A DNA stretch of 63,173 nt, the filler included, from Atractiella rhizophila (Eukaryota), in assembly GCA_021432655.1 (NCBI GenBank). It is 9 parts of 9 records of this genome, joined end to end, with 100 filler letters (N's around TTAATTAATTAA, not from the genome) between each part and the next. Parts side by side here need not be neighbours in the genome. Positions count along the whole stretch, not along the records: positions 16,398 to 24,482 come from MU272173.1; 8 more parts are not named here. One strand, written 5' to 3'. The notes beneath the pieces were generated by a model that did no database searches, was not told the DNA's origin, and worked only from the letters and a program-made list of their open reading frames with translations. This document shows positions 3,460 to 59,960 of the stretch, in pieces; positions within the stretch are counted from its first letter, which is position 1; each line of letters starts with the position of its first letter. The position numbers and the translations under genes are program-made.

Positions 3460-6172
3460 TCAACGTGGGAACGACCTTGCTTCATGCCGCTGTTGCTGCT
3501 CGATGTTTCGTGGTATCGGAATTTTTTCGTGTTCGTCGTCGTCGAGTTGAGTGAACCTTTCGAAGCCAATGACGCTTTGGCTTCCTTCTTCATGCAATCT
3601 AATTCTCCCCATTTCTACTCCCTCATAATCATCATCACCCTCGTCTCCTGGAAGAAGGTCGAAATCGTATGGTCGATCTCCTACTGCTTTCCGCCGTCGT
3701 CGATCTATGAGAAAGTAGGCAGCGGTCGATCCACCAGCGACGATGAGGAGTCCAATCAGGGCAAAAACCCATGTAGGTATGCGAAATTGTCGCGAAGGTA
3801 ATATGTCTCCCTCATCCGACTCGTGAAATACCGAATCAGTGTCTCCAATGGCGATGGAATGATCTGCTGGCAGTTCGTCTGCTGGTTTGACAAGAGTTTT
3901 CGTCGGGAGGGGTACTCCCAGATCCTCCTCCTCCACAGGATTAGGCCGCTCGTCTTCCGGTGTTTCTGGCATCGGCTCCTCTGATTGGTCATCAGTAGAG
4001 GAGGAGGAATCTTGTGTCTGCGTTGGTTGTTCCACTGCTGCTTCTGTGGGATTGGCTGGCAGCTGAATATCTTCGTCCTCAGGAATCTTGTACTCCCTCG
4101 CACGAGACGGATCCACGACTTGTCCCCAAAGCATGAGTTGCCAATCTTTGAATGATCCCTTTGCCTCTTTCGCATTCTTGTGCAAGACGGTAAGTTTCCA
4201 TTTGCCAACAGGGTTCTCTCCCCTGTCAAGTCAAGCTAGCATTAATGGACGGAGATAGGAAGGGAGAGGAAGCGCACCAATGCTTCAACGTCATGAATGT
4301 CCAATCTTTAAAGCCGTCTCTGTCTTCATCCCACCTCCTCGATTTAGCCAACACACTCTTGACACCATGTGGACTTTCAAGGATGACCTCCACGTTGCCT
4401 CTTCGCTCATGTTCGATATTGACCGTCACCTGCACATGTTCCGTGGCAGATTTATCGAAATTAGCATCGAACAAGTTCTGTTCAGTGACCTCGATAACGC
4501 GCACGACGCCATTTTCTGACATCTCCGCTTCTTGCGCTTGAACTTCTGATTGATACCATCCTTGCGGTTTAACGAGCTGCCAGGTACGAGCCGCCTCGAC
4601 ATACTTGACGGCGTCAAGCTTACCGTAGCCGTATTTGTACGAGAATTGCCTTCGAGGAGTAGAAGCAGTACGGTCCCAGTCGGGATCTTTGGGATTAATG
4701 GGAACAGCGGTGACCACGCAAAGGTATTGGATGTCTCGCCACGTAAGATCTGGCCGGACCTGCAGAGCAAGGGCGAAAATACCTGAAGCTAGGAAGACGA
4801 GCTCGTTCAAGTTCCTTTAAATTGGAGAAGAAAATCATACCGAGTGGAGCGGCAGCACTAGTTCCACCATGTCCTCCCGTACATTTATTCTTATGCACAT
4901 CCGTCGTAAAGATGCTCGCTCCACCACCAGAGCTCCAAGCCACGGCCATGAGGGCAGCACAGCTCTCACTGTACTCGGGATGAGCGCCTTTGTGATCCAG
5001 CGCGCCAATAGTCACCGTCCAGATCGAGTTGGTGTATCCGTCAAAGTTGCACTGGTCTTCATATGTCCCTCCGTTCCCAGATGCAAAGACGAAAATGCTC
5101 CCCAAGCCTTGTCGACCGACTTGGACGCCAGTGAGGAAAGCTTTCTGGATCAATGGAGACGGGGCTCCAAGTGCGCGACCAGTGTCTGGCGGTCCCTTCA
5201 TAATCCCGATCAGTCACTCAATGTAAAGATATGCAGGAGAATAGGCGAACGAACCCAAGAACAGCTGTAAATTGCGTTGGTCTGAAAACCATGATTCAAA
5301 GCCATCGCCTCATCCGCGTCAGTAATATCTCCACTGAGGATCCTGATCGCCGCCAAACCCGCCTCCCAGGCCACTCCAACACCACAAACATCGTTCGGAC
5401 GCGCTGCAATCTCTCCCGCGCACCTCGTACCATGGAAGTCATCGGCAAGTCTGGCAAGCGGGGTCGGGACATGGTCGTTGTAATCCCAACTTCCGACCTT
5501 CCCAATGGCATAGCCCGCTTTGATGTCATCGTGGTATATATCCAATCCATCGTCTATGAGCGCTACCGTCACCCCCTTTCCTGTGACTGTGGGCCAAAGA
5601 GACAGCACGTTCAAGTCGTTTCCGTGTTCAGTGGGATTGAGGAGGTGCCACTGTTTGGGGAAAAGCGGATCGTTAATCTGGGAGGCGAAAGAAGGAGGAG
5701 GAGCTGGAGCACGCTTAACAAGCGAGACGTTGAACGCGTCGGAGCGGATCTCTAGGTCGACATCGTCGTCGGAAGAGTCCTCATCGATGTAATATCTTTT
5801 CGTTCGCCGCTTCGGCGTCTGAGGAATAAGCTCCATCGCACCACTCCACCCTTCGTGTCTCTTTGCGAGACGCCGACTTTCCCAGCCACGTCGTACTCGC
5901 CTCTCTTCTTCTTCCTCCTCTTCTAGCCGCTCTAGCTTCCGCCGACGGACGAGGTAATGATCAGGGAGTGCGTTAAAGGGCTCCACGAGCTCCACTGTGG
6001 TGTTTGGGAATAAATCGGACAATGTGCGATGGGGGAACGGGGAAAGGGACGAAGGGAGGTTGAGAACATAGTATTGATGTGTGGAATAGGTACGCGGTTG
6101 GGGAACGGCGGGTTGGGTGAAGGGAAGGAGGAGGGAGAAGGCGAGAAGAAGAGAGCTGGAGAGCTGGAGCAT
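3460..6172 (-). CDS. KEX2: Kexin (subtilisin-like S8B proprotein convertase), multi-exon
   Basis: Signal peptide MLQLSSSLLLAFSLLL, prodomain with KR sites, catalytic motifs IDDG, HGTRCAGEIA, ASGNGG and GGTSAAAP, P-domain (EHVQVTVNIEHERRG), S/T/E-rich stalk, transmembrane helix and an acidic tail with YDF. Confidence 0.95.
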
Positions 6173-7285
6173 GATGAATCGTGGGTAGTGGAGGTATTTT
6201 TCGTTATTAATGGGCACAAAGCCTCTTGTTCTGATCCTGAAAGGCAAACAAGTCATCAATATGTATCCCCGCTATCTCGATGCATCGGAGAAATTATGCA
6301 GAAGGAGTGCGTCTGTCAATTGCACAAATTGCGAAATTCAGAGACTCGTCAAACAGTTGCAAGCGTGAAATCGTTTCGCACAGCTTCAGCAAGAATTTAC
6401 TGTTGAAACTTGGTATCACAAGTATCATAATAGCTACCACGTTACGACAGGCGCAGAAGCAGTCAACGCAGTATGAACGAGAGGATCCTCATTTTGCTCC
6501 TTCCAGAATCAATGTAACAAGGAAAAAATGTTACAAAGTAAACTAGCTCTTGATGGCTCACCTTGATAGCCTAATACAACGGATATTGAGAAAATGTCTA
6601 TCGATAGCTTTTTCTCCAATCGAAACCTTCAAATACACTTAGAAGAGCTTCTCATGAATTACAGGCTCATTGAAAGACTCACGAAAGAAAGGAGGAGAGT
6701 CACAAAATGCCGTAACTAAGCAAGTGTTCTTCGTACTGCGAGAATCAAATGCCTTCTGCGAGAGATAAATGGATGAATATTGAATATAGGGATTCGCTAG
6801 AAATGATGAAATAGGAGGAATATCTCGAGCTCCTGATATTTGACGGTCAGCTTTCTGATCAGCTGCTCTTCGGGGTCGAGGGTCAGGTCGAAGCAGGTTG
6901 GAGTTCGTGGAGCGCTGGATTTGGATGCAGCCCTGTTTTTGGTATACGAGAATATTTTGTTTGCAGAGATGTACTGCCTGGACTGGATGTGCGCCGTTTA
7001 TAAGAAGATACAAGAAGAACGGGCAAGTCAAGTCCAGTGATGAGTCTTTGGACGCGCAAAACAATTCAATAGTGTTGAAAAGGCAACAACAATGACGGGG
7101 CGACTCACTTGAAGACGTACTATCTTACCCACAGGGATATCTTCCTCTATCCTGCCTCTTTGACTGTTACTACTGCCCTGGCTACTGCCACGTCCTGCCT
7201 CCTTGAGGTCACCAGTTTCTTCGTTGCGGTTGCAATATAATCGAATAAGGTTTCGGTGCAACGGATGCCTAGTCAAGATCTTTGC

Positions 7286-7352: not shown

Positions 7353-8101
7353 ATGGTATGTAATAGCTGTTATCCAACCCTCAGAATGCTGTGACTGACT
7401 CTCTTTTGCGCATAGTCTACCCTCGAAGACGCCAAGCGATCCGCGCCAAAGATTCGAGGTGCGTCTCCTCCACACATCAATACTCAGGTCCTTGCTAATG
7501 TGAACTGTACTGTGGTGATAGATGCTTCCGAAAGGCAACTGGGCTCGGTTTACTCCGTTTCCGGACCTGTAGTGGTGGCAGAGAACATGGTGGGGGCGGC
7601 CATGTACGAGTTGGTCAGAGTCGGACACGATGAGTTGGTGGGAGAGATTATCAGGATCGATAAAGATAAGGTATCGATCCAGGTCTATGAGGAAACTAGG
7701 TGCGTTCAGATTCTGCCATTCTGTGGGTGTAGTGAACGTCCTGTGCATTTTGCTACCACAAAAGATGGCACGAAGTGCGAGCCTCCATCCGTGCCTTCCT
7801 CTTGCTTCAAGCTTTTTAGAGCAGCTCCTATAGTATAGAATGAAGAAGGCTTTGATTTCTGGGACCCTGCTGGGGATCAGCTTGAAATTATTTGTTGGGT
7901 TACTCAACAGTTATTGCGCAAACGCTGCAGCATACAGCAGGGTGCTTTCAATCATATACTAATCGTTGGCTTTTGCAGCGGTATGACGATTGGTGACCCT
8001 GTATTGCGCACTGGCAAACCACTATCAGTCGAGCTGGGGCCAGGACTCATGTCCAACATCTACGACGGTATCCAACGCCCTCTTAAGTCCATTCACGACC
8101 T
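7353..8101 (+). CDS. VMA1: V-type ATPase catalytic subunit A, 5' part, truncated by scaffold end
   Basis: Spliced translation [110 protein letters not shown] matches the conserved V-ATPase A N-terminus. Confidence 0.95.
7714..7961 (+). ncRNA. Candidate intronic H/ACA-like snoRNA or structured RNA in VMA1 intron 3
   Basis: The intron (7700-7978) is 279 nt versus about 55 nt elsewhere. It holds a hairpin at 7714-7770, ANANNA boxes at 7830-7840, a second hairpin (ACCCTGCTG/CAGCAGGGT, TGATT/AATCA) and ATA at 7956-7958 next to the branch point. Confidence 0.45.
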
Positions 8102-8201
8102 NNNNNNNNNNNNNNNNNNNNNNNNNNNNNNNNNNNNNNNNNNNNTTAATTAATTAANNNNNNNNNNNNNNNNNNNNNNNNNNNNNNNNNNNNNNNNNNN
8201 N
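8102..8201. other. Artificial scaffold linker (N-run, TTAATTAATTAA, N-run); also at 16298-16397, 24483-24582, 32641-32740, 40759-40858, 48874-48973, 56986-57085 and 59861-59960
   Basis: Identical 100-nt spacer with a six-frame stop core; genes are cut off at these points. Confidence 0.97.
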
Positions 8202-14244: not shown

Positions 14245-14787
14245 TCACATTTGGAGGGTATCTAATGCAGTAGTAGTCAAAAGATGTAACGCCCGTTTTG
14301 GAGTGTCATACCCGTACCGCTCAACACGCTCGTACCAGTGCTTATCAAAGCCGACGCACTTCAGCATAACCAATGGCATCGTGAGAAGGCCTTTCGCGAA
14401 ACCGTCTCGTTCCACCGACTCAAGCTTGGAAGAATCGATGAATCCGTCGCACCAACCTTGATTTTCCAACTTCTCAGAGAGCTCCTTGTTCCGCTTCGAA
14501 ATTAGGGATTGGCCCCAGCCCTCGTAACCTGCTACGCGAGACCACAACTTCCGAACCTTCTCTCTGTGGATCAGACAATATCTGTAGAATCGTGAGAGAT
14601 CACTAACTGCGACTGGGAGATCGAGATAAGATGTTGCATTCACTTCTCCCCTCCCAATCACCTTGTACACTCCTGACCTCAATTTGAGCTTCGCCATAAG
14701 TGATAGGTAAGTGCATACCGCCATACCACCATTCACCTGGCCCATCCCGTTTGAAAAAGCAGTTGAGTTGTCTGACTTCTGTACCAT
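14245..14787 (-). CDS. Hypothetical protein fragment
   Basis: 180-aa ORF next to an internal N gap; no motif recognised. Confidence 0.25.
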   Translation of the reverse strand: MVQKSDNSTAFSNGMGQVNGGMAVCTYLSLMAKLKLRSGVYKVIGRGEVNATSYLDLPVAVSDLSRFYRYCLIHREKVRKLWSRVAGYEGWGQSLISKRNKELSEKLENQGWCDGFIDSSKLESVERDGFAKGLLTMPLVMLKCVGFDKHWYERVERYGYDTPKRALHLLTTTALDTLQM

Positions 14788-16397
14788 CGTCTAGCTGCTC
14801 CAGACGCTGCACTTCGCATTGTGGAATGTAAAGCAGCCCATGTTTTCCGGGTGCTANNNNNNNNNNNNNNNNNNNNNNNNNCCTCCGAATACCTGTACAT
14901 AGTGAGGTTGAAAGGTGTGCAAAGAACTGTAGACCAATATATCGAGAATCATTTAATGAGAGGAGGCAAAGGGCTAATGCATCTAAAGGTCAAAAGCGAC
15001 TCTGGACAATGATATTAGTATGGTCCATAATATAGTTCAAATCACATGATAGATGGTAGATAGATTATATCGTCAGTTCTTTGATCACTTCCTCCTTTGA
15101 ACAGTGAGATTGTACGCATGAAGTAGCTTAACTGCGAGGTACAGCTCTAGCAAGTTCAGACGAAGAACCACTCCAGTACAGCGCAAAGAAAATGCCCACT
15201 CAACTTTGTCGTCTAAAACGGTAAATCTTCCTCAGGAAAGGATGTACCATGGAAGTGATGGCTCCTGGGGCATATCATTTATAGGCGAAGGTATGAAGCC
15301 GACAATCAATGACAAATCCCATCAACAGAGCTAGACAGTTAATCGACACATCCCGTCCTCAAGCTTTGTCAGTGGAGAAATGCCGGAGCACTGGTATTTG
15401 TCTGCAATGTGAAGCTGAACTATTGAGGCCAGCTATTTGCATTTTTCAAAATCTAGGAGGCATTTGATTCTGGTGAAGGGCCGTTGACTATTAATGATGA
15501 TCGAATCTGGTCGACTAGAGACCAACAGTAGTTAAAGCCGCATTGCGCGATTAAACAAATTTGTCTTCTCTAGTCCGCAATATGAGTGTCACCCATTCTT
15601 GCCGAATGCAAATGGAACGAGCGGACATGAAGGTCCTACCCTTTCATCCAGCTCCTCTGCTTTCTTAGGAGAGAAGTGAGTAGCTCTGAATCCGGCCAGA
15701 ATACGTGCAAAACAGGGAACAACCAGTCTGCTTGTACAAAGACATGTTTCAGGGGAAAACCCCTTCCGATCGGGACGAAAAAGAAGAGTTCTGGATTGAG
15801 GTAAACTACGTGCTTTTGCTGTGACACCACGCCGCAGGCTCCGGCGTATTCTCATCTTATATCGCGCGCTTAAGAAAGTGGAGCCGACGATTGAATGCTC
15901 CTGAGAGTACTGCCTTCCATTCCTGGGAGATACAATGCTGAGTGAGGAGCACTCCAAACCCATTAGACACGCTTTTCCTTGGGCGCGGAGTGGTTTGGAC
16001 CACTATAGCAACCCGGCCCCAATGTCAGTTGGCACAGATCTCTCTCCTCCTCTCGCAGAAAGAAAAAGAATCTGCTGCAGAGAAAGGCAAGATAAAAGTG
16101 TGGCCACGCGATCAATGCGTTGTGCCATGTCACAATGTAATGAACACCATCAAAGTGAGGAGTCCTTCAGACTCTATCAGGAGAGTTGCACTTCCATGGC
16201 CCAGATAGCGGACCTCTTTCCACCTGCAAGAACTCTTGCCCACGCTTTCACACATAAGAAGGAACGCACCTTACAAATATCAGCATGACTAAACCTCNNN
16301 NNNNNNNNNNNNNNNNNNNNNNNNNNNNNNNNNNNNNNNNNTTAATTAATTAANNNNNNNNNNNNNNNNNNNNNNNNNNNNNNNNNNNNNNNNNNNN

Positions 16398-18033
16398 CAA
16401 ACAATACTACAAGACGGTGCTCGAGGATGATTTACGGGCCGAATTCCGTTTTGAAGAGGAGAAGAATCTGTGCATGATCACCGGTGTCATCAAATCACAG
16501 GATTGGCTTCATGCCGTGTTTCATCAGTCTGGGAGTAGCTTTGGTCTTAACGTAGGGGTTCAGCCTGCCGGCTTCCAGTTACGTCGTGATTACGGTAACA
16601 TCGGGGATCAAACATTGTTTATTAGCAGAATCACTTTCAAGGGTAGACTGATACATCGCTTGCTGAAAGCAGGCGGCTCGAGACCACCATCTCCATCGGA
16701 GAGACCTCCAGAGGAAGGCGTCGATGAAGTTTCTTGCGATGAGTCTACTGAAAGGCTGGTATGGGTCTCTTTTCGCTGCATTTAGTGCAACACTGATTTC
16801 TAGTAGTTTCCCGACCCGCTAGACGTTCTTCTTGAGGCCATGTTGACGGTGCTGACTTCTTTCCAACCAAGCGCATGCACTCATGACCTCCTACAGTTGC
16901 GTCCCGATGCTGAAGCTGCTATTGCTTCGGACAACGATTTGGGTGCTCTTTGTCAAAAGGTATGCAGCCATACAATGATATTCAGTTCTCGATGCGAGTA
17001 CCAGGCTCTCTGGAACTTCCAATATATAGAATGGACAACTCAGAAAGCGATTGAGCTGCTTCAAACTTGTGCTGAGTGCATCGAAGAGCAAGAGCAAGGT
17101 AAGTGCCACCTCGCCCAATTTGAAGGTAATTCTGATGTGCCTTTGTAGTCATGACCCTGAACTTCTCCAACGACTTAGCAGATGTCACAATGGATATATC
17201 ACTAGGGGAAGACTCTCAATACCTACAACCTTCCAATCATGGTATCCCATTCGTCAATTCTCCAGCCTTCAACGAATCGCTCCGGTTTCCATCCTTCTTG
17301 GATGACGATGCTATCGACACTGAGAGCAACTCTTCCTACCGTGAGGTGCAGCATGAGGAAGACAGTAAAATTCGCCCATGCAGGAAACGGAAGACAAATT
17401 GCGGAGCTCACGGTCGTCCCCCCTCGATTGTCCACCCTGTGGGAACGCATGAACGAAAGGGACTGAGGGAAGGAGAGCTGAACGGCTCCCATGCAACAAC
17501 GTTCGACCTCGTTACATGGCCCAAACCTGGAAACAATGCTGAACCAAGAACCCTATTCTTCTTCGAAGGAGTTGACGGCCCTGTGTGCCATGACTATTTT
17601 CAGCTAAAGGCGTAAGTTTTCGGGTTCCATCAGACAATAAGACTGACTGTGACACACAGCAAAGGTAACATCCTGGAAGCATCGGTATTCTTCGATACGA
17701 GAACGTATAATGTCGTACACAACTCTGATGGAAAGGAGATTCTGCCCTCGTTAAAGTCGAAACCCCACATCTGGCTGCAAGGTACTGCTCTCATAAGCTG
17801 TCTCTGATGAAGGGTAATGTTGAGAACAGCCCAAAAATGTGCATCCCCTTGCAGCTGGAGATTCAAAGGAAAGCAGGATTCTGAAAGTACGCATTTAATG
17901 TCTACCTCGAGCGAAAGCGAAACTAAGCCATCGAGCAGTTTTTGATCACGTCTTGACTTGCAAGTTCAGAAACACTAACGACCCACTGAATAAATTGTGT
18001 ACGGTATGGAAGGCACAAAGGATCAGAAGTTGA
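16398..18033 (+). CDS. Gasdermin-like protein A (5' truncated) with C-terminal Cys/His module; frameshift near 3' end
   Basis: QYYKTVLEDD..NLCMITGVIKSQDWLHAVF..DQTLFISRITFKGRL..DPLDVLLEAML..AEAAIASDND is closely paralogous to 20649-23488. The C-terminal exons (RTLFFFEG..KEILPS..WLQ..CASPCSWRF..HVLTCKFR) match the repeats at 18440-20129. Confidence 0.6.
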
Positions 18034-18439
18034 ACATGGAATGGGCTAATGAAATTGTTTTCGCGATTGTATTCTACCACATCTGCAATCACTATTGGAG
18101 TAGGTCCTAAAGGCAGGATGCTTGATTATCTGCATTGAAACTGTGAAGTGAAATCGAAGACGTTAACTTGAGGCTTGATGGTGATCTCACTCGTGCATCT
18201 CCTGTTTGTGTGTCTTCCGGTCCCACAACAAACTGTTGGCTGATCAAGATGCAATAAGAGGACAGAGCTCCTAGTAACACATCAGCACGATCTGACCAAC
18301 GTAACCCGGAAAACGTCAATTCCCCTTCATGCACTATTCAAAAGTGCTAGATCTCAAGTTTTCCTACAGGATACCTTCAGACAGTGCTGACTATGGGCTA
18401 CAACGAAGGCGCTGTTCACACGGTCCAAACTGTCCGTAC

Positions 18440-19064
18440 TCTTGATGGGTTTCCTTTTTTACATATAACCCGCACGAGATACTCGAGAAAGAATTCGCTC
18501 TCCCTGCCTTCGACGTCAGCAAATTTTCTGCATCCGCTGCTTCCAAGCTTCAATGGTCATGAACGTAATGGGAAGAAACTTTTACTTCTTTCAGGAACTT
18601 GGGTCCCCAGCGAGTGATGAATATTTTCTCCTACATAGGTGAGTTTGGATCCCATTACCTCATGCTTTGCGCTGAATGAGACATAGTAAGGGTCAAATCC
18701 AGGAAAACTTCGTGTATTTCCAACCTGGAACGTATCACGTCGTTCTCGACTCCAGCGGCAAGGAGATTCTGCCGTCACCGGAGTTCGCAACCGCCAACCA
18801 CAAGCTGTGGTTGCAAGGTACTGTTCTAACACACTGTCTGACCGAGGACTAACGTTGCGACCAGGTCAACAATGTCCATCCCCTTGCACTTGGATATTCA
18901 AAGGAAAGCAGGCTCATGAAAGTACGTATTTGACGTCTACCTCGAGGGAAACTCAGCCACCGAGCACAGTTATTCTGCACGTCTCGACTTGTAAGTTCAG
19001 AAATTACAGTGATCCCTTGAAGAAATTGTGTACCCTATGGAGGGCCAAGAGATCCAGAAATTGA
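18440..19064 (+). pseudogene. Stand-alone copy 2 of the Cys/His module
   Basis: RNFYFFQELGSPASDEYFLL|..GKEILPS..LWLQ|GQQCPSPCTWIF..HVSTCKFRNYSDPLKKLCTLW, with the same intron positions as in gene A and an in-frame TAA upstream near 18466. Confidence 0.55.
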
Positions 19065-19429
19065 ATCCAATTGGGTCTGTTGTTCTTGATACATTGTAAT
19101 GCAATCACATTTTGTATGGAATCGGCACAGTTCAGACTACGCCCTTCTTAGCGGGGAGGGTAGCTCCGGTACGTCCCAAACACGATTTCATCTGTCGCCG
19201 AGAAATTGAACGTCTCGACTTCGAAGTTGTGTAGTGAAAGCCTAAGACTTCGTGCTCTGTGATCTCCTGTTGACCAGCCTGCCTTCTGTTCGTGCCCCGT
19301 GGCTGACTAAGATGTACTATTTCTCTCAGATGGACAGAACCACTTGATGGCAACGTCAACGTTCGCATCAGCATCTCGCCAACACCTTCAAACAGCAAGG
19401 CGACAGAAAGTTGTTGGTGCCGTTCATTC

Positions 19430-20129
19430 ATGCGCAAGTCTTATTGGAGACTTTGCTTAGACGACGAGATACGTTTAGAGGACTCTTTCGCGCCGAGGCC
19501 ATCCAAACTCTCCATCTTGGATGCGTTTCTCTTCTGCATATATAGCGCACGAGATGCCGGAGAGGAAATTCGCGTTCCCTGTCTTCCAGGTCTGCGCTTT
19601 GCATCGCTACCTCGGAGCTTCGAAACTGCAACCCTCATGAATAGGAACGCAAGAAACTTTTACTTCTTCAAGGAACTTGACTTCCCCGCGAGCGATGAGT
19701 ATTTCCTCCTAAAAGCGTAAGTTTTTGTGCCATTACCGTATGCTCTAAGCTAACTGAGACAGGAGGGGTCTCACATTGGAAGATGCCGTGTTGTTCCCTC
19801 CTGGAACTTATAAAATTGTTCTGGACTCCAACGGGAAGGAGATTCTGCCTTCGATAGATTCCACTCCCAAACTATGGCTGCAATGTACTGTCCGGATGAC
19901 CTGTCTCTGAGAGGGACTAATAATCTGAGTAGGTCAGGAATGCCCATCCCCCTGCTCTTGGAGATTTGGCGGAAAGAATCCTGACGAAAGTACGCGTTTA
20001 ACTTCCTTCTCGAGCCAAACTCAGCCATGGAACACAGTTTTCCGTCATGTATCCACTTGTCAATTCAGAAGTCCCCAGGATCCCTTGAGGAAGTTGTGTC
20101 TACTATGGAAGGGAAGAAGATCCAGGTGA
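19430..20129 (+). pseudogene. Stand-alone copy 3 of the Cys/His module
   Basis: RNFYFFKELDFPASDEYFLLKA|..GKEILPS..LWLQ|..QECPSPCSWRF..HVSTCQFRSPQDPLRKLCLLW, with a 1-nt frameshift near 19798 relative to the other two copies. Confidence 0.55.
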
Positions 20130-20648
20130 ACATGCACAATAGGTTTACTATTCACAAAGGCTTGAATCATGATGCTTCTGAGGGTTTGGCTACTGAATTA
20201 GCGAAGCTGACAGCAGAGGATGCTTAGTGACCGGAACGCCTACTAAATAAGAGTTGCTGGAGTAAGTAAAAATGACATTATTACCTACTTGATTTCTTTG
20301 AGTCAACGCGAGAGCCCAAGAAAGCTCACATCAAGTGGGCGGAAAAGTCGCACAGATGGACCGAGCTTGAGAGTGGGAGCAGAGTCGCAGCCGCAATCGC
20401 TCCCCTTCATCGAGGAAGGAATGCGTTCGCTTCCCTTCACGACTGGGATTTGCGAGTGCTCAATGTGAAGTTTTCCTGCGGGATTCGTTCAGACGATGTT
20501 GTGTACGGGGGTGGCACCTCGTTCACACTGTCCGTCTGGGATGTATTTTGCTCTTTGCATATAATCCTCACCAGATGTCTGGGAGTGAATTCTTGTCCCT
20601 ACCTTCCAGGTTTTCAAACTTCAGTCTGAACCCGCAACTTGAACTATC

Positions 20649-23488
20649 ATGTCTTACGAACCTCATTACATCTATGAAACACTTATGTATGACTCTTTGC
20701 TCCACTGGCCCATTTACAACCCGTCGTACACCGAAGCTGATCCAGTCGCGCTACCACCAAGAAACGGGAGTCCCCCAATCTCCACACCAGAGACTGGGAC
20801 GTCTGGGACGCCCTCGAGCACGACTGTCCGTCCCTTCTCTACCCAAGAAAGAAACCAAAGTGATCCTTCAAATTCAATTGATTCAAGAGATCCATCTATC
20901 AGTGTGGAGGATTCAGGTACTGTGACTCCTCATACCTCTTCTCCAGTCTTATTGAAGTCATTCTTCCGCCGTCGCTTTCCACACGGTACAGGTGTTGCCA
21001 GTCCCGCCGTTCAACCGTCTTTTGGTAGTCGCTTAGCTAGTAGTCTCTTTGGCCGTTGGCTCCCAGGTACTCCTCCGTCGCCTGCCCCACCTCCTCGGAC
21101 TTCAGGCAGAAGCCAGGGCCGAGGTGGTGAATGGCGCATTGGAGATTTCGGATACTGCGCCAACGGCACGTTTAGATATTCGCGAAACGCAGATGACTTC
21201 TTAGGCCCAGAGGACGCTCCCCTCAGCTACTCCTTAGATGGTGTCGCTTGGGGCTACCAGACGCCACTCCAGAGAGGTGAATTTGAGTCTGTCAGGGACG
21301 TCAGGGTCGGGATCGATACTACTCCTACGGTGTGCGTTGCCCCTCCCCGTGCTTGTAGCGTTATTAAAAAGATGTTGCATGCAGCAGTATTGACCCCTTC
21401 CCTACTCTTGCGCTCCAATACTACAATCGGTCCCAGCATGCCGCCGTATTGGCCACCAAATCGAACCCCCTTCGTTTCGCCGTCACGCATCAGCTGCTTG
21501 CGGTTCAATACTTCAAGCAATACTACAAGACCGTGCTCGAAGACGATTTAAGCGCCGGATTCTCTTTTGGACAGAACAAAAATCTGTGCATGATTATTGG
21601 GGTCGTCAAATCGCATGATTGGCTTCATGCAGTGTTTCATCAGTCAGGCAGTAGCTTTCGTCTCAACATGGGGGTTCAAGCTGCCGGCTTCCAGTTAAAT
21701 CGTGATTATGATTATGGCGATATCTCAAGGCCCTCCGTCCGAACTGGACCCACCAACCACCAACCACGTTCGTTTACAGTACATAGCTCAATAAGCATAG
21801 TCTTACCATGTCGCAGGAAATGGAATCTTCTCGGCCCACAATAACGTCGACGTCGGGGATCAAACATTGTTTATTAGCAGAATCATGTTCAAGGGTAGAC
21901 TGATGCCTCGCTTGCTAGTGGCCGGCGGCTTCAAACCACCCTCGCCATCCCAGGGACATCCAGATAAAAAAATAGATGAAATTCGCTGCGATCAATCAAG
22001 TGAACAGCCCGTGCGTGCTTCTTTCGTTCAATCCCGGTGATAGCACCACTAATCCCTCGGTAGGCTACGGACCCTCTTGATGTTCTTCTTGAGGCGATGT
22101 TGATGGTCTGCAATTTTTTTTTGGAGAGATTGCCTCAATTCATAAACTCAACAGTTACGTCCCGATGTTGGAGCCGCTATTGCCTCGGACAACGACGTGG
22201 ATTCTCTTTGTCAAAAGGTATGCTGCGTGCACAATGTTATGACGGCGATTGATGCGAGTGTTAGGCTCTCTGGACCTTCAAATATGCAGAATGGACAACT
22301 CAAAAAGCGATGGAGTTGCTTCAAACATGTGTTGCGTGCATCGAAGAGGAAGACAAAGGTGTCTCATTCCATTCCACATCCGTGGAGAAGGTTGAAACCA
22401 TTGGTTCTTTGTAGTGCTAACCTTGAACTTCCCCATCAAATCACCAAACAGAGAAGAATTGTTGGAAGAGGACTCGGAACAGCAAAAGGTTCTGTCTGAC
22501 TCCGCCGTGCACAATTTAAAATCAGTCCACCAATCAGGCAGGCCAGAGTTGAGGTGGAATTTCTCCTCTATTCTGTGGAAAGCACAAAGTTTGATTGGTT
22601 TGGTGCATAGACCCAAGATCCCTTACAATGTCCCTGGGTATACCAATCACAACAATCATAACCGAGGGTGGCATCAGCATGGTGAGGATGCTCAGGCTTC
22701 TTTGCACAGAATCAAGAAAGTGATACCCGTCAACAGGATCTGGAATACCTGCAGAGGAGCGCTTACGGCAATTAAGCGAACTCATCGGATATCCTTTCGA
22801 TCGACAGAACTACCACCTGTGGATCACCGCAATTACAAATGCAAGTTATATTGGAAGACCTGAAGGCTCAAACGGAGGGCTTGCACGGTACGATGATTGC
22901 ATGAGTCAGAGGCTAACTGCTAACTCAAATCGCCTACAGTCTGGGAGATTTGGCAATGAAAACGGTTCAGACCGCGGTTTGCCCTGAACCTACACCCATT
23001 GCAACCCTCATTTTTTGTAGGTCCTTCACCGGGTCGGCCTGGGAGACGACGGAAGTGAGTATTTCAACATGTGCCTTGTCTTTTGTGATGAGCTCGATCT
23101 TCAGAGCGACACAACGAAACGATCCAGAGCCGCCTGAGCCAATTTCCCCTGGAGTTAATATGCAGGAAGTACAGGCTCCAGGAACTTGTTTATCATCGGC
23201 TGTCAGGGTTTCCAGGAAGGCATTGTGCAGATTTGGTCCGGGCTATCATCGGGGCTGTGTACCTCGACGTTCAGTTCCCCCTGATTCAAGTAAGAATGCT
23301 AAAGGGAGAGATAGTGTGTTGCTCATGGCTGCAACCCTATGGAAATGGTCGAAATGGTCATGAATAATCTGGATCTTCTTTGTGATCCCTCTCCACCACT
23401 GCAAGAGCAAGCAGCCAGTTACTACCAGCCAAGTAGCCACCTGAGTTACTGCGATGACTACCAACCGAGCAGCAGCCGAGGCTACTAG
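20649..23488 (+). CDS. Gasdermin-like protein B fused to a degenerate RNase III-like domain (multi-exon)
   Basis: N-terminal motifs WPIYNPS, RIGDFGY..GTF, AAVL..YFKQYY, LCMIIGVVKSHDW..AVF, DQTLFISRIMFKGR and DPLDVLLEAML..AAIASDND resemble the basidiomycete gasdermin-like family. C-terminal LSELIGYPF..AITNASY..NGGLARLGDLAMK..CADLVRAIIGAVYLD..VEMVMNNL follows the RNase III pattern. The frame is continuous through GT-AG introns. Confidence 0.65.
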
Positions 23489-25450
23489 AAGCCCAACAAA
23501 GGATATTACAAGCCACTAATCTCAAATACACGGAGACAAGCTTTCACTTCAGCGATTGAAAGGTGAGGGAGCCATGTCCTTGAAGCCTGCTATCAATTAT
23601 CAGTCGCATTGATGTCAGTTTCTATTCAACTATTCTTTCTCATTCGTTACCTACTTCTCATTTCGGGTTTTTCATCTCGTCCTGTTTCACTCAATTAATT
23701 CAGCGAGATTGACATCCTCTCCTCGATTCAGTTCTGAGGTATATTTGGTATATGTCCAATGTACATTTCCGGTCGTGAGTTAAATGATACCTGTTCCTCT
23801 GCACTTCCCTGCGTATTCGTCTTCTTCATGTTTTCGACGTGACCATCAAGTCTTTTGTCGAAGGAATTTTCGATGTACACTCTTTACTTCACAGTCTCGA
23901 TTAGGTACGGTATGATGTAGACTAGCTCCATCTGCGAACGTTCACATGTTTCAGACCTGTCAATCAAATAAATACGAACCTCTCTTGACTTTCTGACTCG
24001 TTACACGAAGGTAGCGGCAGACCTTTCGGTCCGAAAGATGCCTTCAAGGCAAGCTAACCATTAACTTATCGAATTAATCAAACGCTTAGAATCGCATGAA
24101 TTTGAAAAACAGCACAAAAGAAAGAGAGAATGCTAAAGCTGGCGAGAGGCACCCGAGTTGGATTGGAAGGTAAAAAGTGTTTATGACTATAACACGTAGT
24201 CGATTCTCATAGCCTCTTCTCCAGTCACGCACCATGTATAAGGGGTTGTACTGCGAAATGATTGCTGCTGCGAATTGTGTGTTGCAGCCTGAACGAGAAG
24301 CCAAGTGGGCGGAAAAGCGGGATCGACGGCTGCCAGGACACCAAGGGTCGGCGAAGCTGGTGAATGGTGAAGTGGCAGGAAGGAGAGTTGTGAGTGGAGA
24401 TGGTAGGTGTCGCTGCATAGCAGTTGGGGTCCTACACTGATTTGCTGGGTGACAGAAGCACTATAAGAATGCATACAACCTCNNNNNNNNNNNNNNNNNN
24501 NNNNNNNNNNNNNNNNNNNNNNNNNNTTAATTAATTAANNNNNNNNNNNNNNNNNNNNNNNNNNNNNNNNNNNNNNNNNNNNAGCTCTACTGCTGAACTA
24601 AAAGACGTGTTTCCTATGAAGTAATTGTTGAATGGATAATTGAGACCCTTAATGAGGTATTCCGGGTATACCAAACCACTGACAATCCGAGGTAGGCACA
24701 AAATCACGCGATGTTAAAGATCTATGTAAAATTTCAACCTTAGGTGTTAAGTTTCTGGGTACCACATAGTAGGTCGTTCTCTTTTCGTATCTCACACTCT
24801 CACCAACAAACTACCTTTGAGAACCGATCGTGTTCCTTGATTCTACATGTGCTGGCAATTAGAGTCGCATACGCATAAGTAACGAGTTTCACAACCATTC
24901 AGATGTTGAAAGTCTAGCACTTTGTCGGAGGGTGGGGCGGTGCAGAGGAAGGGAAGGTGCGCTGCGACCGTCTCCAGGAGTCAGGAGACCGCCGCGTTCA
25001 AATCTTGCTCGCCACTTGTCGCAAATTAATTCGAAACCTTGTGCAAATTGATTTATTAAGCAGCGGACACCGTAATGAGGCCGAGATGCGAAAGCGTGCG
25101 AACGGGCCGGCATCTAGCTGAACCTTGACTGAACCATGGCACATGTGCGTCATCATAGAGCCGAGAACAGGAATGCGACCTGATACTTAGAACCAGTACG
25201 TTACTTTTCTGTAAAGTGTAAAGCTGTACAGAGAGGTACTGCGTGAAGGAATGCGCTCGCGCAGTCTCGGCCTCGGCCGCTCCGCCTGCCTCGCCTTTAC
25301 AGCTTTTGCCCCTTTCAAAAATCGACGACGACTTGATCTGTAAAGAGTATCGCCCTTAAAAAATGGAGCTCGTTCGACGGCACCCTCCCTTTCCCACTCT
25401 CCTCTTACATCCAAACCACCTGCACCACCCTCCTTCGTTAATTTCAAGCC

Positions 25451-30880: not shown

Positions 30881-32740
30881 TGTTGTTGATTATTAAGTTT
30901 AGAGCCCCTCGCCCACATTAAGGGACTATTCCGTCACTCTGGACCTTGTTCTTAACTCGAAATGAGGCATAATGATATATTTAGAATTAAAGCTCTTGCT
31001 TACAAATAAATTTTACATCTGTTTCAATCTGCTGAAGAAGAAAGAGATAAAGCAGTATCAAGACGGCGCATAGAACAATGAACTCTACGGTATGCTTCAT
31101 GTGGAATGAATGCCCTTTCGAGTGCGCTGATCTTCATCTTGACTTTACAAACAATGACCGGAGCTACAGCGAGCCACCTAATGGTGTTCCTTTACACTCC
31201 GGTCACTGAACGACTACTTCATCTCTTACTCCAACTGAAACCCATTTACGAAAGAAAGCATGAACAAAAAACTCAGCTCATCAGCAACCGGTCCCTTCTT
31301 CCCAATCCGACTACTATCCAAATATCAAATATCCAGACACAGCTCACATTCCTTCATGCTCAAACTACGTGGTTGGATGTGAAATAGGCATGAATATCTA
31401 TAATCCTTGTCAGTTCAGTCTTACTGCCTTAAATGAGAAAGTTAATGGGCCAAAACATACCTTCTGTGCGCCTACTAATGTAAATAAGATAAAATGAGTG
31501 GCTGATGAGGCAAGCGAGGAGCCTGCATATGTTTCTCAACTCAATTAGCATTGCAATCCATATTTCCTTATTTTACAGCCCTTCAACCCGATCTGTCGCA
31601 TCCTCTATCAATGAAATGGTATCACCTATCCCCAATACTAAGTTAGAAAGTGTTAAAAACAACATGACAAAGTAACCGTCTTTCTTTCCCCTTCCAGTGT
31701 TAGAAACTGATGCTGGAAATGGATTGACATATCTTGGGAGTTCCAGCAAGCTATGCCGCCCTTCCAGCATTCTAGGCTACCTACTGCAGGAGTTCCAGTG
31801 CAGGAGAGGAGCCCATAACAGCATGAAAAGGCACGACGGGAACGAAAAAACCAAAAACTCTCATTCAGACCTGTTGGCAAGGAAAGCTGAAGACGTACCG
31901 TTGTGATGTTGGAGAGAAAGCAAAGTAAAACAACCCAAACACCTTTGAATAGCTTAATAACGCGCGTCGTCAACTGAAAGAATAGCGCCGCTCGTCTAGT
32001 TTGGAAAGAGAAGGTGAGGAGAAAGGCTGAGCGGCGCTTTATGCTATCATAAAGTGCAGTGGAGTGGAGGGGAGGAGGGAGGAGCAGGAAGGAGGGTTTG
32101 GCGTCGAAAGCAGTATTGAAAGGGAGAAGGGGGAGGAAAACACGAAGAGAGTTGGAAAGAGGGGAGAGCGAGAACGAACGAGGATAACATGCTGACACAT
32201 TGAGCTGACGTGTTCGGAAGAAGGGGACCCGACGCCGTTGTAACGGCCAGGCGTTCGGTACCCTAATCGTACTTTACACTTTACAGAAAAGGTACTTACT
32301 CGGGTCAAAATAGTCGAAGTTATGTTAAGTCAATTCTTAATTTAGGCGGTTCGATTTGCCGCTCGGTCTCGCAACGATCACTCCATTTTGAAGGTTATTG
32401 CAGATATTACAGTTGAAAGGGATTGAATGGAGATCAGTAGTGAGCGCTGCTTACGAGCTTACGACGTGAAGGAGTTATTTCTCACACGCTCACTTAAAAC
32501 GGCGCACCTCATGAAACTTTTTCTCCTCCAACGTTTTCAAACTCAGCTTCGCTCTAAGAATAGTGACGACGACACGCACCAACGCGCTTCCCTTTGTTGC
32601 CAGTTCCCTGGAAAAACCGTCTCCGGCTCCTCCTACACAANNNNNNNNNNNNNNNNNNNNNNNNNNNNNNNNNNNNNNNNNNNNTTAATTAATTAANNNN
32701 NNNNNNNNNNNNNNNNNNNNNNNNNNNNNNNNNNNNNNNN

Positions 32741-40758: not shown

Positions 40759-40858
40759 NNNNNNNNNNNNNNNNNNNNNNNNNNNNNNNNNNNNNNNNNN
40801 NNTTAATTAATTAANNNNNNNNNNNNNNNNNNNNNNNNNNNNNNNNNNNNNNNNNNNN

Positions 40859-56985: not shown

Positions 56986-57085
56986 NNNNNNNNNNNNNNN
57001 NNNNNNNNNNNNNNNNNNNNNNNNNNNNNTTAATTAATTAANNNNNNNNNNNNNNNNNNNNNNNNNNNNNNNNNNNNNNNNNNNN

Positions 57086-59860: not shown

Positions 59861-59960
59861 NNNNNNNNNNNNNNNNNNNNNNNNNNNNNNNNNNNNNNNN
59901 NNNNTTAATTAATTAANNNNNNNNNNNNNNNNNNNNNNNNNNNNNNNNNNNNNNNNNNNN

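What the first reader, a model, noticed from the sequence alone, without database searches (positions are those of the whole stretch)
20649..23488. Gasdermin-like pore-former fused to a catalytically degenerate RNase III domain
Seen: hand-splicing (introns at 22682-22736, 22888-22939, 22965-23020, 23055-23104 and after YLD) joins a gasdermin-like region in frame to LSELIGYPFDRQNYHLWITAITNASY..NGGLARLGDLAMKTVLHRVG..RLSQFPLELICRKYRL..CADLVRAIIGAVYLD..MEMVEMVMNNL. The ORF track does not show this. Known: RNase III uses acidic residues in ERLEFLGD and ADxxE; here both Asp are kept but the Glu positions are Ala and Arg. Fungal gasdermins (RCD-1, HET-Q1) execute cell death and many are activated by a neighbouring protease; no protease gene was recognised on this scaffold. 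Inference: a one-component immune protein in which a non-cutting RNase III fold senses dsRNA (for example mycovirus) or acts as a decoy for Dicer-targeting suppressors and gates a pore. I am not aware of this architecture having been described.
Basis: partly seen in the sequence, partly recalled or inferred. Interest (0 to 1): 0.9.

Follow-up and report, generated by a model that had tools for sequence, protein, structure and literature searches.

The report
Putative pore-former fused to RNase III-like
A fungus (Atractiella rhizophila) makes one spliced messenger RNA that joins a basidiomycete-only domain, possibly related to the pore-forming cell-death protein gasdermin, to a double-stranded-RNA-nuclease domain that has lost half of its catalytic residues, an architecture not found in the papers searched.

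Summary
The gene (window 20649-23488, + strand) has 14 exons. Spliced RNA contigs confirm all 13 GT..AG introns. The spliced translation equals the 717-aa Atractiella rhizophila protein BT69DRAFT_1290713.

The C part is an RNase III-like domain. Free-standing paralogs pass Pfam PF14622, and the family profile hits Aquifex RNase III at E 1e-6. Two of the four metal-binding carboxylates are lost (E40->A, E110->R). It is predicted to homodimerise.

The "gasdermin-like" label is plausible but unproven. Only ESM-Atlas neighbour lists point to gasdermins (TM 0.32-0.51). Pfam, PADLOC, NCBIfam, PDB profiles and hhalign against five bacterial gasdermins found nothing. Both AlphaFold runs failed.

The N domain defines an expanded basidiomycete family. 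Its conserved core, linker and helical segment are followed by interchangeable C-terminal modules: WD40, TPR, RNase III-like or unknown. This suggests an effector plus sensor/regulator layout.

The window is a concatenation of small scaffolds, so only 8,085 bp of true context exist. That context holds a tandem paralog and no recognisable protease. Function is untested. I rate it a new variant of a known kind, of moderate to high interest.

The parts
20649..23488 (+). Whole coding region: 14 exons (20649-20916, 20992-21331, 21385-21767, 21817-22010, 22064-22105, 22155-22217, 22265-22358, 22415-22553, 22611-22681, 22737-22887, 22940-22976, 23021-23054, 23105-23268, 23315-23488). It encodes the 717-aa protein P0001 (BT69DRAFT_1290713, KAH8914119.1).
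   Evidence: RNA junctions; spliced translation equals P0001; names.
20649..20738 (+). Conserved N-terminal segment (aa 1-30), helical in the low-confidence models.
   Evidence: Alignments (Y9 and P25 nearly invariant); secondary structure of the poor models.
20739..21113 (+). S/P/T-rich insert (aa 31-130), seen only in the Atractiella paralogs and probably disordered. It spans intron 1.
   Evidence: Alignments; pLDDT under 50.
21114..21950 (+). Beta-rich core of the N domain (aa 131-375). It includes GEWRIGDFGY, LCMIIGVVKSHDWLHAVF, two alternating (amphipathic) stretches and GDQTLFISR. This is the putative gasdermin-like pore-forming part.
   Evidence: Family alignments; Atlas leads; amphipathic stretches. 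The fold is not confirmed.
21951..22010 (+). Pro/Ser/acidic linker (aa 376-395), variable in the family. It is a candidate cleavage or hinge region.
   Evidence: Alignments; the role is inferred.
22064..22440 (+). Conserved helical segment (aa 396-470): DPLDVLLEAML...AIASDNDVDSLCQK...EWTTQKAMELLQ. It is present in all family members and is a candidate autoinhibitory latch or adaptor.
   Evidence: Invariant D343, L348, A364, D366 and D368 of P0002; highest pLDDT (73-80) of the model; the role is inferred.
22441..22747 (+). Variable charged, His/Asn-rich linker (aa 471-535).
   Evidence: Alignment.
22748..23374 (+). RNase III-like domain (aa 536-680). The signature GGLARLGD (aa 578-585, 22874-22949 across an intron) has E37->G, E40->A and D44 kept. 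ADLVR (aa 647-651, 23227-23241) has D107 kept and E110->R.
   Evidence: homodimer model with pLDDT 88.
23375..23485 (+). Y/Q/P/S-rich tail (aa 681-717) with repeated Y-x-Q-P-S-S-like motifs. The free RNase III-like paralogs P0008 and P0009 and the second fusion P0003 share it.
   Evidence: Sequences; alignment.
16399..17100 (+). 3' part of a tandem upstream paralog, cut by the scaffold end. Its exons are identical to P0002 aa 188-399 except for an in-frame loss of aa 256-288.

Best explanation
SHOWN. This is one expressed, 14-exon gene of Atractiella rhizophila encoding a 717-aa cytosolic protein. In order it has: a conserved basidiomycete-specific N domain (aa 1-375), a linker, a conserved helical segment (aa 396-470), a second linker, an RNase III-like domain (aa 536-680) with only two of the four metal-binding carboxylates, and a Y/Q/P/S-rich tail. 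The N domain plus helical segment forms an expanded family: at least 11 gene models in Atractiella, and many in Phanerochaete. The C-terminal end of the family is interchangeable (WD40, TPR, RNase III-like or unknown). The RNase III-like module comes from a small Atractiella family. That family also exists as three free-standing genes with the same substitutions.

INFERRED. The N domain is a gasdermin-fold-like membrane-permeabilising effector. The helical segment behind the linker holds it inactive. The C-terminal module is the regulatory or sensing part. The RNase III-like domain probably cannot cleave, because it lacks the essential E110. It dimerises like a normal RNase III domain and may still bind double-stranded RNA in its valley, where Arg/Lys replaces the metal-binding Glu. 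Binding of dsRNA, or pairing with the free paralogs, would bring two or more effector domains together or release the latch, and so trigger cell death. This would be a one-chain sensor-executor, possibly antiviral or used in non-self recognition.
For: Single transcript and ORF. There are 13 of 13 GT..AG junctions in spliced contigs of X5. One contig runs from exon 4 to beyond the stop. The two contigs have similar k-mer depth, 33.7 and 36.4. The spliced translation equals P0001.

Second locus. P0003 carries the same junction of N-domain end, helical segment and RNase III-like part at 66% identity. It sits next to P0006, the N-terminal part (KAH8927901 and KAH8927902).

RNase III-like domain. 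PF14622 scores 21.6 bits in P0001. It scores 41.2 and 40.1 bits (cut-off 35) in paralogs P0008 and P0010, which match P0001 at E 6.7e-54 and 1.3e-44. Profile A3 hits Aquifex RNase III at E 9e-7.

Substitutions. They are read. E110/E117 is described as 'functionally essential', and E40, D44, D107 and E110 as the metal ligands (PMC3867540, passages).

Homodimer. The model supports binding; it does not show it. The score is 0.82 against a best control of 0.01. The mark was reached by 21 of 30 proteins solved as pairs of one chain and by 0 of 23 solved as single chains. On eukaryotes it was reached by 17 of 29 and 0 of 30. The runs agree in at least 95% of contacts and the partner pLDDT is 88. The interface lies on the signature helix 573-608 plus 658-669. 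Like complexes are solved, so the pass may be from memory.

Modular family. WD40 fusions occur in 10 Phanerochaete proteins. TPR follows the helical segment in P0014 and P0016. Other tails are unrelated.

Gasdermin lead. For P0002 the Atlas lists Gasdermin D at TM 0.36/0.29 and bacterial gasdermin clusters at 0.33/0.47 and 0.32/0.44. For P0022 it lists a 'gasdermin family protein' at 0.41/0.51 over 205 residues and Gasdermin D at 0.32/0.23. Feature scores are 0.84-0.85 (Bact_GSDM) and 0.80-0.81 (Gasdermin). The core has two alternating hydrophobic/polar stretches.

Layout. Core, linker, then a short conserved helical segment matches what is written of fungal and bacterial gasdermins, which have small inhibitory C-terminal parts removed by cleavage (PMC8851545, passages).
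Against: No gasdermin link by sequence. PF04598 gave no hit at E up to 10 in 13 of 13 family members. PADLOC, which holds bGSDM model PDLC02986, gave none in 13 of 13. NCBIfam gave none. The PDB profile search gave none at E up to 10. hhalign against five bacterial gasdermin ORFs gave probabilities of 0.23% and 0.07%. The family profile against 401 cyanobacterial genomes gave only chance-level hits: 8 of 401 at E<=1, best 0.076.

The fold is unconfirmed. AlphaFold2 gave mean pLDDT 44.8 and 39.6. Foldseek on those models found nothing, best E 3.9.

The Atlas evidence is weak. Its TM values are mostly under 0.5, MACPF models are equally near for P0022 (0.38/0.30), and the tool itself calls such rows leads.

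Other points. The N-terminal helix has no basic residues. There is no dsRBD, so RNA binding is a guess. Atypical fungal RNase III-like proteins can remain functional (Mucor R3B2, PMC4395119, passages), so 'dead' is not proven. No activating protease, toxicity or RNA binding has been observed. The fusion is known from one species, plus partial transcripts of a relative (X1).
Confidence: 0.45

Rival explanations
1. This is a protease-activated effector with a passive C-terminal cap. As in HET-Q1, bacterial and animal gasdermins, a protease encoded elsewhere cuts the linker (aa 376-395 or 471-535). The RNase III-like domain only dimerises, stabilises, localises or helps to autoinhibit, and senses no RNA.
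For: Known fungal gasdermins are switched on by cleavage and mostly sit next to S8 or CHAT protease genes (PMC8851545, passages). The family keeps a variable Pro/Ser/acidic linker before the conserved helical segment. Stand-alone members with no C-terminal module are common: 9 in Phanerochaete carnosa. The RNase III-like domain has no dsRBD and is predicted to dimerise.
Against: No protease domain was found among 52 of 52 ORFs of 45 aa or more on the rest of the 8,085-bp scaffold, though the scaffold is too short to judge. The variety of sensor-type modules (WD40, TPR) at the same position argues for more than a passive cap. The substitutions E110->R/K/K/Q are kept in 4 of the 5 RNase III-like family members (P0001, P0008, P0009, P0010). 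P0003 is the fifth; its residue at that position is Q, but its gene model lacks the middle of the domain. This suggests a selected surface.
Confidence: 0.25
2. The N domain is not a pore-former at all. The protein is an RNA-metabolism or RNA-silencing accessory factor: a lineage-specific atypical RNase III-like protein in the manner of Mucor R3B2 or the mitoribosomal mL44/mL57. It is carried on an unrelated beta-rich basidiomycete domain of unknown role.
For: No sequence method ties the N domain to any known family. AlphaFold could not fold it. Lineage-specific RNase III-like proteins with non-canonical signatures act in fungal RNA silencing (PMC4395119, passages). The family profile weakly hits NFD2 (E 0.016) and mL57 (E 0.11-0.3).
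Against: Two family members only 22-24% identical to each other both have gasdermin and MACPF models as their only named structural neighbours. The same N domain is joined to WD40 or TPR repeats, or stands alone, which does not fit an RNA-specific role. The tandem, expanded and divergent paralogs resemble fungal cell-death and non-self gene families.
Confidence: 0.15
3. Integrated decoy. The RNase III-like domain mimics the Dicer/RNase III domain targeted by viral or microbial suppressors of RNA silencing. Binding or modification of the decoy releases the effector.
For: This is by analogy only (plant NLR integrated decoys, recalled). The catalytic residues are lost but the fold and dimer interface are kept. 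Free-standing copies exist.
Against: The domain is only distantly like any canonical RNase III (26% identity to P0017; best PDB E about 1e-6 with a profile). A decoy would be expected to stay close to the host's own Dicer or Rnt1, and that was not compared here. No suppressor is known for this fungus.
Confidence: 0.08
4. Artefact: two neighbouring genes are merged by the gene model or by read-through, with the RNase III-like part translated separately.
For: Contigs cannot prove a single molecule, and the tool warns that a contig across two genes shows no single transcript. Free-standing RNase III-like genes exist. The paralogous locus is annotated as two models, P0006 and P0003.
Against: One spliced contig bridges exon 4 to the 3' end with every intron removed, and the frame stays open for 717 codons. 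The split at the paralogous locus falls inside the N domain, not between the N and C parts. P0003 itself contains the junction.
Confidence: 0.03

Closest known systems
Fungal gasdermin-like proteins RCD-1 (Neurospora) and HET-Q1 (Podospora)
   Same: It is a cytosolic fungal protein of an expanded, divergent gene family. It has a beta-rich core of about 250 aa followed by a linker and a short conserved C-terminal segment (PMC8851545 and PMC10197012, passages). Atlas structural neighbours include a 'gasdermin family protein' cluster whose commonest phylum is Ascomycota.
   Different: There is no detectable sequence or profile similarity, whereas RCD-1 was linked to gasdermin by HHpred at about 95% (PMC7414189, passage). 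Known fGSDMs are about 250-280 aa with no extra domain, are mostly ascomycete and are usually next to a protease gene. This protein is 717 aa, basidiomycete, carries an RNase III-like module, and has no protease on its short scaffold.
Bacterial gasdermins (bGSDM, PADLOC PDLC02986)
   Same: They have a similar core size, a short inhibitory C-terminal peptide logic (recalled and PMC8851545 passage), and Atlas TM up to 0.47-0.51 when normalised by the bacterial protein.
   Different: hhalign probability is under 1% against five bGSDM ORFs fetched here. There is no N-terminal Cys. The gene is eukaryotic, intron-rich and multi-domain.
Class 1 RNase III / Mini-III (RNase III domain, PF00636/PF14622)
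   Same: The domain has the same length and helix order. The signature-motif Gly-Asp and the second Asp are kept. The predicted homodimer forms through the signature helix. Like Mini-III it has no dsRBD (PMC3867540, passage).
   Different: E40->A and the essential E110->R. E37->G. It is fused behind a large unrelated N-terminal part. It carries a Y/Q/P/S-rich tail.
Mucor R3B2 family (lineage-specific atypical fungal RNase III-like proteins)
   Same: It is a small, lineage-restricted fungal family with a non-canonical RNase III signature, hardly detected by standard models. Some of its paralogs have Lys at a catalytic position (PMC4395119, passages).
   Different: R3B2 has two dsRBDs and acts in RNA silencing. 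This one has no dsRBD and sits in a different phylum. No sequence relation was tested here.
Mitoribosomal mL44/mL57 and plant NFD2 (degenerate RNase III-like proteins)
   Same: The RNase III fold is used without canonical catalysis. The family profile gives weak hits (NFD2 E 0.016; mL57 E 0.11-0.3).
   Different: The hits are much weaker than those to bacterial RNase III. Nothing suggests a ribosomal role.

Membership tests
RNase III domain (Pfam PF14622 / PF00636) | Profile match above the curated threshold | tested here: met
   P0001 alone is below threshold: PF14622 scores 21.6 bits against a cut-off of 35, E 2.6e-4, covering profile positions 3-111 of 128. Its paralogs P0008 (41.2 bits) and P0010 (40.1 bits) pass, and P0009 scores 34.6. 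They match P0001 at E 6.7e-54, 1.3e-44 and 8.5e-48. Profile A3 hits Aquifex RNase III at E 9.3e-7.
RNase III domain (Pfam PF14622 / PF00636) | Four metal-binding carboxylates (Aquifex E40, D44, D107, E110), with E110 essential | tested here: not met
   A581, D585, D648 and R651 give 2 of 4. The free paralogs have A/D/D/Q (P0008) and A/D/D/K (P0009, P0010). The role of the residues comes from PMC3867540 (passages).
RNase III domain (Pfam PF14622 / PF00636) | Homodimer through the signature-motif helix | tested here: met
   This rests on a model only. The score is 0.82 against a best control of 0.01. The mark was reached by 21 of 30 solved pairs of one chain and 0 of 23 single chains (eukaryotes 17 of 29 and 0 of 30). 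Runs agree in at least 95% of contacts and pLDDT is 88. The interface is 573-608 and 658-669. Similar dimers are solved, so the pass may be from memory.
RNase III domain (Pfam PF14622 / PF00636) | dsRNA binding and Mg-dependent cleavage | not testable with these tools
   This needs EMSA and cleavage assays.
Gasdermin (N-terminal pore-forming domain; PF04598, PF26164, PADLOC bGSDM) | Match to a gasdermin profile | tested here: not met
   PF04598 gave no hit at E<=10 in 13 of 13 members. PADLOC gave none in 13 of 13. PF26164 is not in the Pfam copy held. hhalign against 5 bGSDM ORFs gave probabilities of 0.23% and 0.07%. The profiles are thin (Neff 2.6-3.6 and 2.9), so this is weak negative evidence.
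Gasdermin (N-terminal pore-forming domain; PF04598, PF26164, PADLOC bGSDM) | Gasdermin-N fold | tested here: inconclusive
   AlphaFold2 gave mean pLDDT 44.8 and 39.6, and Foldseek on those models found no match. The ESM-Atlas models of its own (pTM 0.62 and 0.66) have gasdermin clusters among the 30 nearest models, at TM 0.32-0.41 by query and 0.23-0.51 by target. MACPF is also near for P0022.
Gasdermin (N-terminal pore-forming domain; PF04598, PF26164, PADLOC bGSDM) | Inhibitory C-terminal segment behind a cleavable linker | tested here: inconclusive
   A variable linker is followed by a conserved helical segment (DPLDxLL...) in all members. Its role is inferred, not shown.
Gasdermin (N-terminal pore-forming domain; PF04598, PF26164, PADLOC bGSDM) | Neighbouring activating protease (S8, CHAT or caspase-like) | tested here: inconclusive
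   None was found among the ORFs of the 8,085-bp scaffold. The scaffold is too short to judge, and the larger paralogous scaffold could not be read.
Gasdermin (N-terminal pore-forming domain; PF04598, PF26164, PADLOC bGSDM) | Membrane permeabilisation or toxicity of the freed N domain | not testable with these tools
   This needs expression and liposome assays.
Fungal NLR / STAND receptors | Central NACHT or NB-ARC nucleotide-binding domain | tested here: not met
   No such Pfam family is found in P0001. None appears in the precomputed Pfam lists of the WD40 fusions as far as they are shown; some of those lists are cut.

The most novel reading that the evidence does not exclude
Basidiomycetes have a family of one-chain 'sensor-executor' cell-death proteins. 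In them a very divergent gasdermin-fold pore-former is wired directly, without a protease, to swappable C-terminal sensors (WD40, TPR). In Atractiella the sensor is a catalytically dead, dimeric RNase III domain that reads double-stranded RNA. This gene would then be a fungal antiviral suicide switch that couples dsRNA sensing to membrane pores.
Probability: 0.15. Interest if true: 0.9.

Novelty: new variant of a known kind. Interest (0 to 1): 0.6.

Why it matters
According to the passages read, fungal regulated cell death is known mainly from ascomycete het genes, NLRs and protease-gated gasdermins. A basidiomycete family could join a pore-former-like domain directly to sensor-type modules, one of them an inactivated dsRNA-nuclease fold. 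That would be a new way of gating a gasdermin-like effector. It would also be a candidate link between RNA (virus) sensing and cell death in fungi, where antiviral defence beyond RNAi is poorly understood.

Two results stand even if the gasdermin reading fails. The gene documents a lineage-specific RNase III pseudo-enzyme family, both free and fused. It also documents a large unannotated basidiomycete domain family that deserves a structure.

Tried and rejected
1. Whole genome: none is held, so the larger scaffold with the paralogous locus could not be read.

2. AlphaFold2 of P0002 (26-sequence alignment A2) and of P0022 (A5) gave mean pLDDT 44.8 and 39.6. Foldseek against PDB with both models found 0 matches at E<=0.001, with TM about 0.05-0.1. 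These results are meaningless and were not used.

3. The third homolog search used alignment A2. It was swamped by WD40 columns and added only two N-domain proteins (P0040, P0041).

4. Pfam, PADLOC and NCBIfam scans of N-domain proteins at E<=10 found nothing relevant. The PDB sequence and profile searches found nothing either.

5. Looking for bacterial gasdermins next to caspase/WD40 genes found none among 10 plus 48 ORFs (loci L001-L015).

6. The PADLOC bGSDM model was then found by trying the accessions next to the 'caspase' model. It was run over genomes. Hits were 2 of 401, 1 of 401, 1 of 4, 0 of 401 and 2 of 121, one of them already seen. The five ORFs were aligned as A7. hhalign against A4 and A5 showed no similarity.

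7. Family profile A4 was run against bacterial genomes: 0 of 5 and 8 of 401 at E<=1, best 0.076. This is chance level.

8. Earlier notes of this scan held nothing on this genome or sequence. The word search returned only bacterial gasdermin notes, which were not used.

9. RNA runs X1-X3 hold small shares only. When laid, they gave partial support. X1, a 90-99% identical relative, is spliced at 3 of the 13 junctions. X2 has a 100% identical contig ending with 8 letters that fit exon 5. No claim about habitat is made. Parts without cover in X1-X3 are not counted as evidence.

10. The kexin-like S8 gene at 3463-6271 was rejected as a partner because it lies on a different scaffold.
Full report
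WHAT IS THERE

The window is not one piece of genome. Pairs of 44-N runs around the spacer TTAATTAATTAA recur about every 8.1 kb. The stretch 16398-24482 is exactly 8,085 bp, the contig length recorded for the protein found. Real context is therefore limited to that scaffold.

An exon translation (21440-21766) retrieved, at 100% identity, the 717-aa hypothetical protein BT69DRAFT_1290713 of Atractiella rhizophila (P0001). It also retrieved a 399-aa paralog, P0002. P0001 maps onto the window as 14 exons.

TRANSCRIPT

One public run (X5) holds spliced contigs of this gene, and 13 junctions are seen, all GT..AG. Record 12 covers 20660-21885. Record 13 covers 21856 to beyond 23900 with every intron removed. 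The two overlap by 30 nt and have similar k-mer depth (33.7 and 36.4).

Resolving each junction to its only GT..AG position and translating gives P0001 exactly.

A related organism (X1, 90-99% identical contigs) shows 3 of the 13 junctions, including the last one inside the RNase III-like part. A soil metatranscriptome contig (X2) is identical, and its loose end fits the next exon. Contigs cannot prove single molecules. However, a second locus in the same genome (P0003) encodes the same junction of N-domain end, helical segment and RNase III-like part at 66% identity. An artefact is therefore unlikely.

THE C PART

P0001 alone scores below the Pfam threshold for PF14622: 21.6 against 35 bits, E 2.6e-4, over nearly the whole profile. 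The exhaustive search of 1.84 billion representatives found 19 proteins at E<=0.001:
- 13 match only the N or middle part.
- 1 (P0003) matches both parts.
- 5 match only the C part.

Three of those five are free-standing Atractiella proteins of 181-263 aa (P0008, P0009, P0010). They score 41.2, 34.6 and 40.1 bits on PF14622. A profile of them hits Aquifex aeolicus RNase III at E about 1e-6, and then Drosha and Dicer-2.

The residue-by-residue alignments give these equivalents:
- E37 -> G
- E40 -> A581
- D44 = D585
- D107 = D648
- E110 -> R651 (Q, K and K in the free paralogs)

According to the review passages read (PMC3867540), E40, D44, D107 and E110 hold the two Mg2+ ions, and E110 is functionally essential. 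Canonical cleavage is therefore improbable. The same review notes that the domain dimerises, and that Mini-III works without a dsRBD.

A homodimer of aa 536-690 is supported by the complex model, which does not show binding. The score is 0.82 against a best control of 0.01. The mark was reached by 21 of 30 solved pairs of one chain and 0 of 23 single chains; on eukaryotes by 17 of 29 and 0 of 30. The runs agree in at least 95% of contacts, and pLDDT is 88. The interface is the signature helix. Since RNase III dimers are solved, the pass may reflect memory of those structures.

No dsRBD is present. The tail is Y/Q/P/S-rich, with repeated Y-x-Q-P-S-like motifs shared with P0003, P0008 and P0009. 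Mucor R3B2 shows that lineage-specific, non-canonical fungal RNase III-like proteins can still be functional (PMC4395119, passages). 'Degenerate' is therefore safer than 'dead'.

THE N PART

No library recognises it. The blanks were Pfam, PADLOC, NCBIfam, PDB sequences and PDB with a family profile.

Homologs are Atractiella paralogs and proteins of Phanerochaete and Peniophora. Alignments show a conserved order:
- an N-terminal segment
- GDxGY..G.F
- a beta-rich core with LxMIxGxVK..W
- TGP
- (G/R)DQ(T/S)(L/V)F
- a variable Pro/Ser/acidic linker
- a conserved helical segment, DPLDxLL...

What follows that segment differs:
- Nothing: 9 P. carnosa proteins (P0022-P0027, P0029, P0030, P0036).
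- WD40 repeats: 10 Phanerochaete proteins.
- TPR: P0014 and P0016.
- RNase III-like: P0001 and P0003.
- Unrelated tails: P0004/P0007, P0011/P0015, P0012, P0013 and P0005.

Some of these models are partial, so the counts are of gene models, not proven proteins.

IS IT A GASDERMIN?

The only positive evidence is the ESM Atlas.

For P0002 (the Atlas's own model, pTM 0.62), the named families among the 30 nearest models are WD40 (the fusions), Gasdermin D (TM 0.36/0.29, 211 aligned) and two bacterial-gasdermin clusters (0.33/0.47 and 0.32/0.44). The nearest named clusters by language-model features are Bact_GSDM (0.84) and Gasdermin/PJVK (0.80).

For P0022, only 22-24% identical to P0002, the result repeats. 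A 'gasdermin family protein' cluster scores 0.41/0.51 over 205 residues, and Gasdermin D scores 0.32/0.23. Two MACPF clusters also appear, at 0.38/0.30 and 0.36/0.29. Feature scores are 0.85 and 0.81. The tool calls such rows leads.

The core also has two stretches of alternating hydrophobic and polar residues. The order of core, linker and short conserved helix resembles the small inhibitory C-termini described for fungal and bacterial gasdermins (PMC8851545, passages).

Against this stand several results:
- Two AlphaFold2 runs failed, with pLDDT 44.8 and 39.6, and Foldseek on them was empty.
- I fetched five bacterial gasdermin ORFs with the PADLOC model. hhalign gave 0.23% and 0.07%, though the profiles are thin.
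- The family profile found only chance hits in 401 cyanobacterial genomes.

I put the gasdermin-like fold at roughly 60%.

CONTEXT

The scaffold begins inside another family member. Positions 16399-17100 encode P0002 aa 188-399 identically, except for an in-frame loss of aa 256-288. The family is therefore tandemly arranged.

On the 145,873-bp scaffold, P0003 and P0006 are adjacent (KAH8927901 and KAH8927902), and P0002 is four accessions further on (KAH8927906). The order there looks like that on the small scaffold. The small scaffold may thus be a haplotig or a duplicate of that region. In that case P0001 and P0006+P0003 are 66-71% identical beside a neighbour that is 100% identical apart from an in-frame 33-aa loss. 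I could not test this.

No Pfam domain, protease or other, was found in 52 of 52 ORFs of 45 aa or more on the rest of the scaffold. The one hit, a coiled-coil family at E 0.006 below its cut-off, is not meaningful. The S8/P-domain gene at 3463-6271 is on another scaffold.

HOW IT MOST LIKELY WORKS

This section is inferred. The N domain is the effector. The helical segment keeps it closed. The C-terminal module decides when it opens.

For this gene that module is a dimerising RNase III fold. It has traded the metal-binding Glu for Arg, which could favour holding rather than cutting an RNA duplex. Clustering on dsRNA, or pairing with the free paralogs, would then activate the effector.

The main rival is classical protease activation, with the C part as a passive or dimerising cap. 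Less likely rivals are an RNA-metabolism role with a non-lytic N domain, an integrated decoy, and a model artefact.

NOVELTY

Five full-text searches and the passages read listed no paper describing a gasdermin-like domain fused to an RNase III-like, WD40 or TPR module in fungi. The passages came from PMC9815663, PMC8851545 (including a search of its three spreadsheets), PMC10197012, PMC7414189, PMC3867540 and PMC4395119.

The reviews read place fungal gasdermins mainly in Ascomycota. In the spreadsheets of PMC8851545, 'Phanerochaete' and 'Atractiella' do not occur. The SI PDFs were not readable.

I class the finding as a new variant of a known kind. That rating is conditional on the fold. It is of moderate to high interest because the key label and the function are unproven.

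Noticed in passing
window 8102-8201, 16298-16397, 24483-24582, 32641-32740, 40759-40858, 48875-48974, 56986-57085, 59861-59960: The window is a concatenation of separate small scaffolds of about 8.0-8.1 kb, in falling size. They are joined by N44-TTAATTAATTAA-N44 spacers, so genes on either side of a spacer are not neighbours.
   Followed up: yes
window 16399-17100 (+), and 17005-17097: This is a tandem upstream paralog fragment identical to P0002, except for an in-frame 33-aa loss. The database model of P0002 ends in a frame (NGQLRKRL...) that skips the conserved ALWNFQYIEWTTQKAIELLQ exon, which is readable in another frame. The 399-aa model is therefore probably mis-spliced at its 3' end, and the real protein is longer.
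   Followed up: partly
window 3463-6271 (-): A kexin-like proprotein convertase (Peptidase_S8 plus P_proprotein domains over several ORFs) lies on a different scaffold, so it is not linked to the gene.
   Followed up: partly
window 23375-23485 (+); proteins P0003, P0008, P0009: A Tyr/Gln/Pro/Ser-rich tail carries repeated Y-x-Q-P-S-(S/G)-like motifs behind both the fused and the free RNase III-like domains. It is longest in P0009. It may be a low-complexity or prion-like region or an interaction motif.
   Followed up: no
proteins P0014, P0016, P0013 (Atractiella; not in the window): The conserved helical segment (DPLDxLL...EWTxQKA) stands at the start of gene models that continue into TPR repeats or long unknown tails, without the beta-rich core. 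Either the models are truncated, or the segment is an independent adaptor shared between effector-like and repeat proteins.
   Followed up: partly
proteins P0009 (KAH8922267) and P0010 (KAH8922264): Two of the three free-standing degenerate RNase III-like genes lie three accessions apart on one 83,635-bp contig, which suggests a local cluster.
   Followed up: no
window 50266-50676 (-), 60366-61478 (+), 7416-7835 (+), 14248-14790 (-): Other scaffolds of the window carry a Tf2-type retroelement SH3 domain, a RecQ zinc-binding domain, an ATP synthase alpha/beta N-terminal domain and a DUF6697 domain.
   Followed up: no
window 21535-22011 and 23650-23893 (runs X2, X3): Soil metatranscriptome contigs are 100% identical to exons 3-4 and to the 3' untranslated region. 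One ends with 8 letters that fit exon 5, i.e. it is spliced. The gene therefore seems to be expressed in environmental samples. The shares are small and no habitat is claimed.
   Followed up: partly
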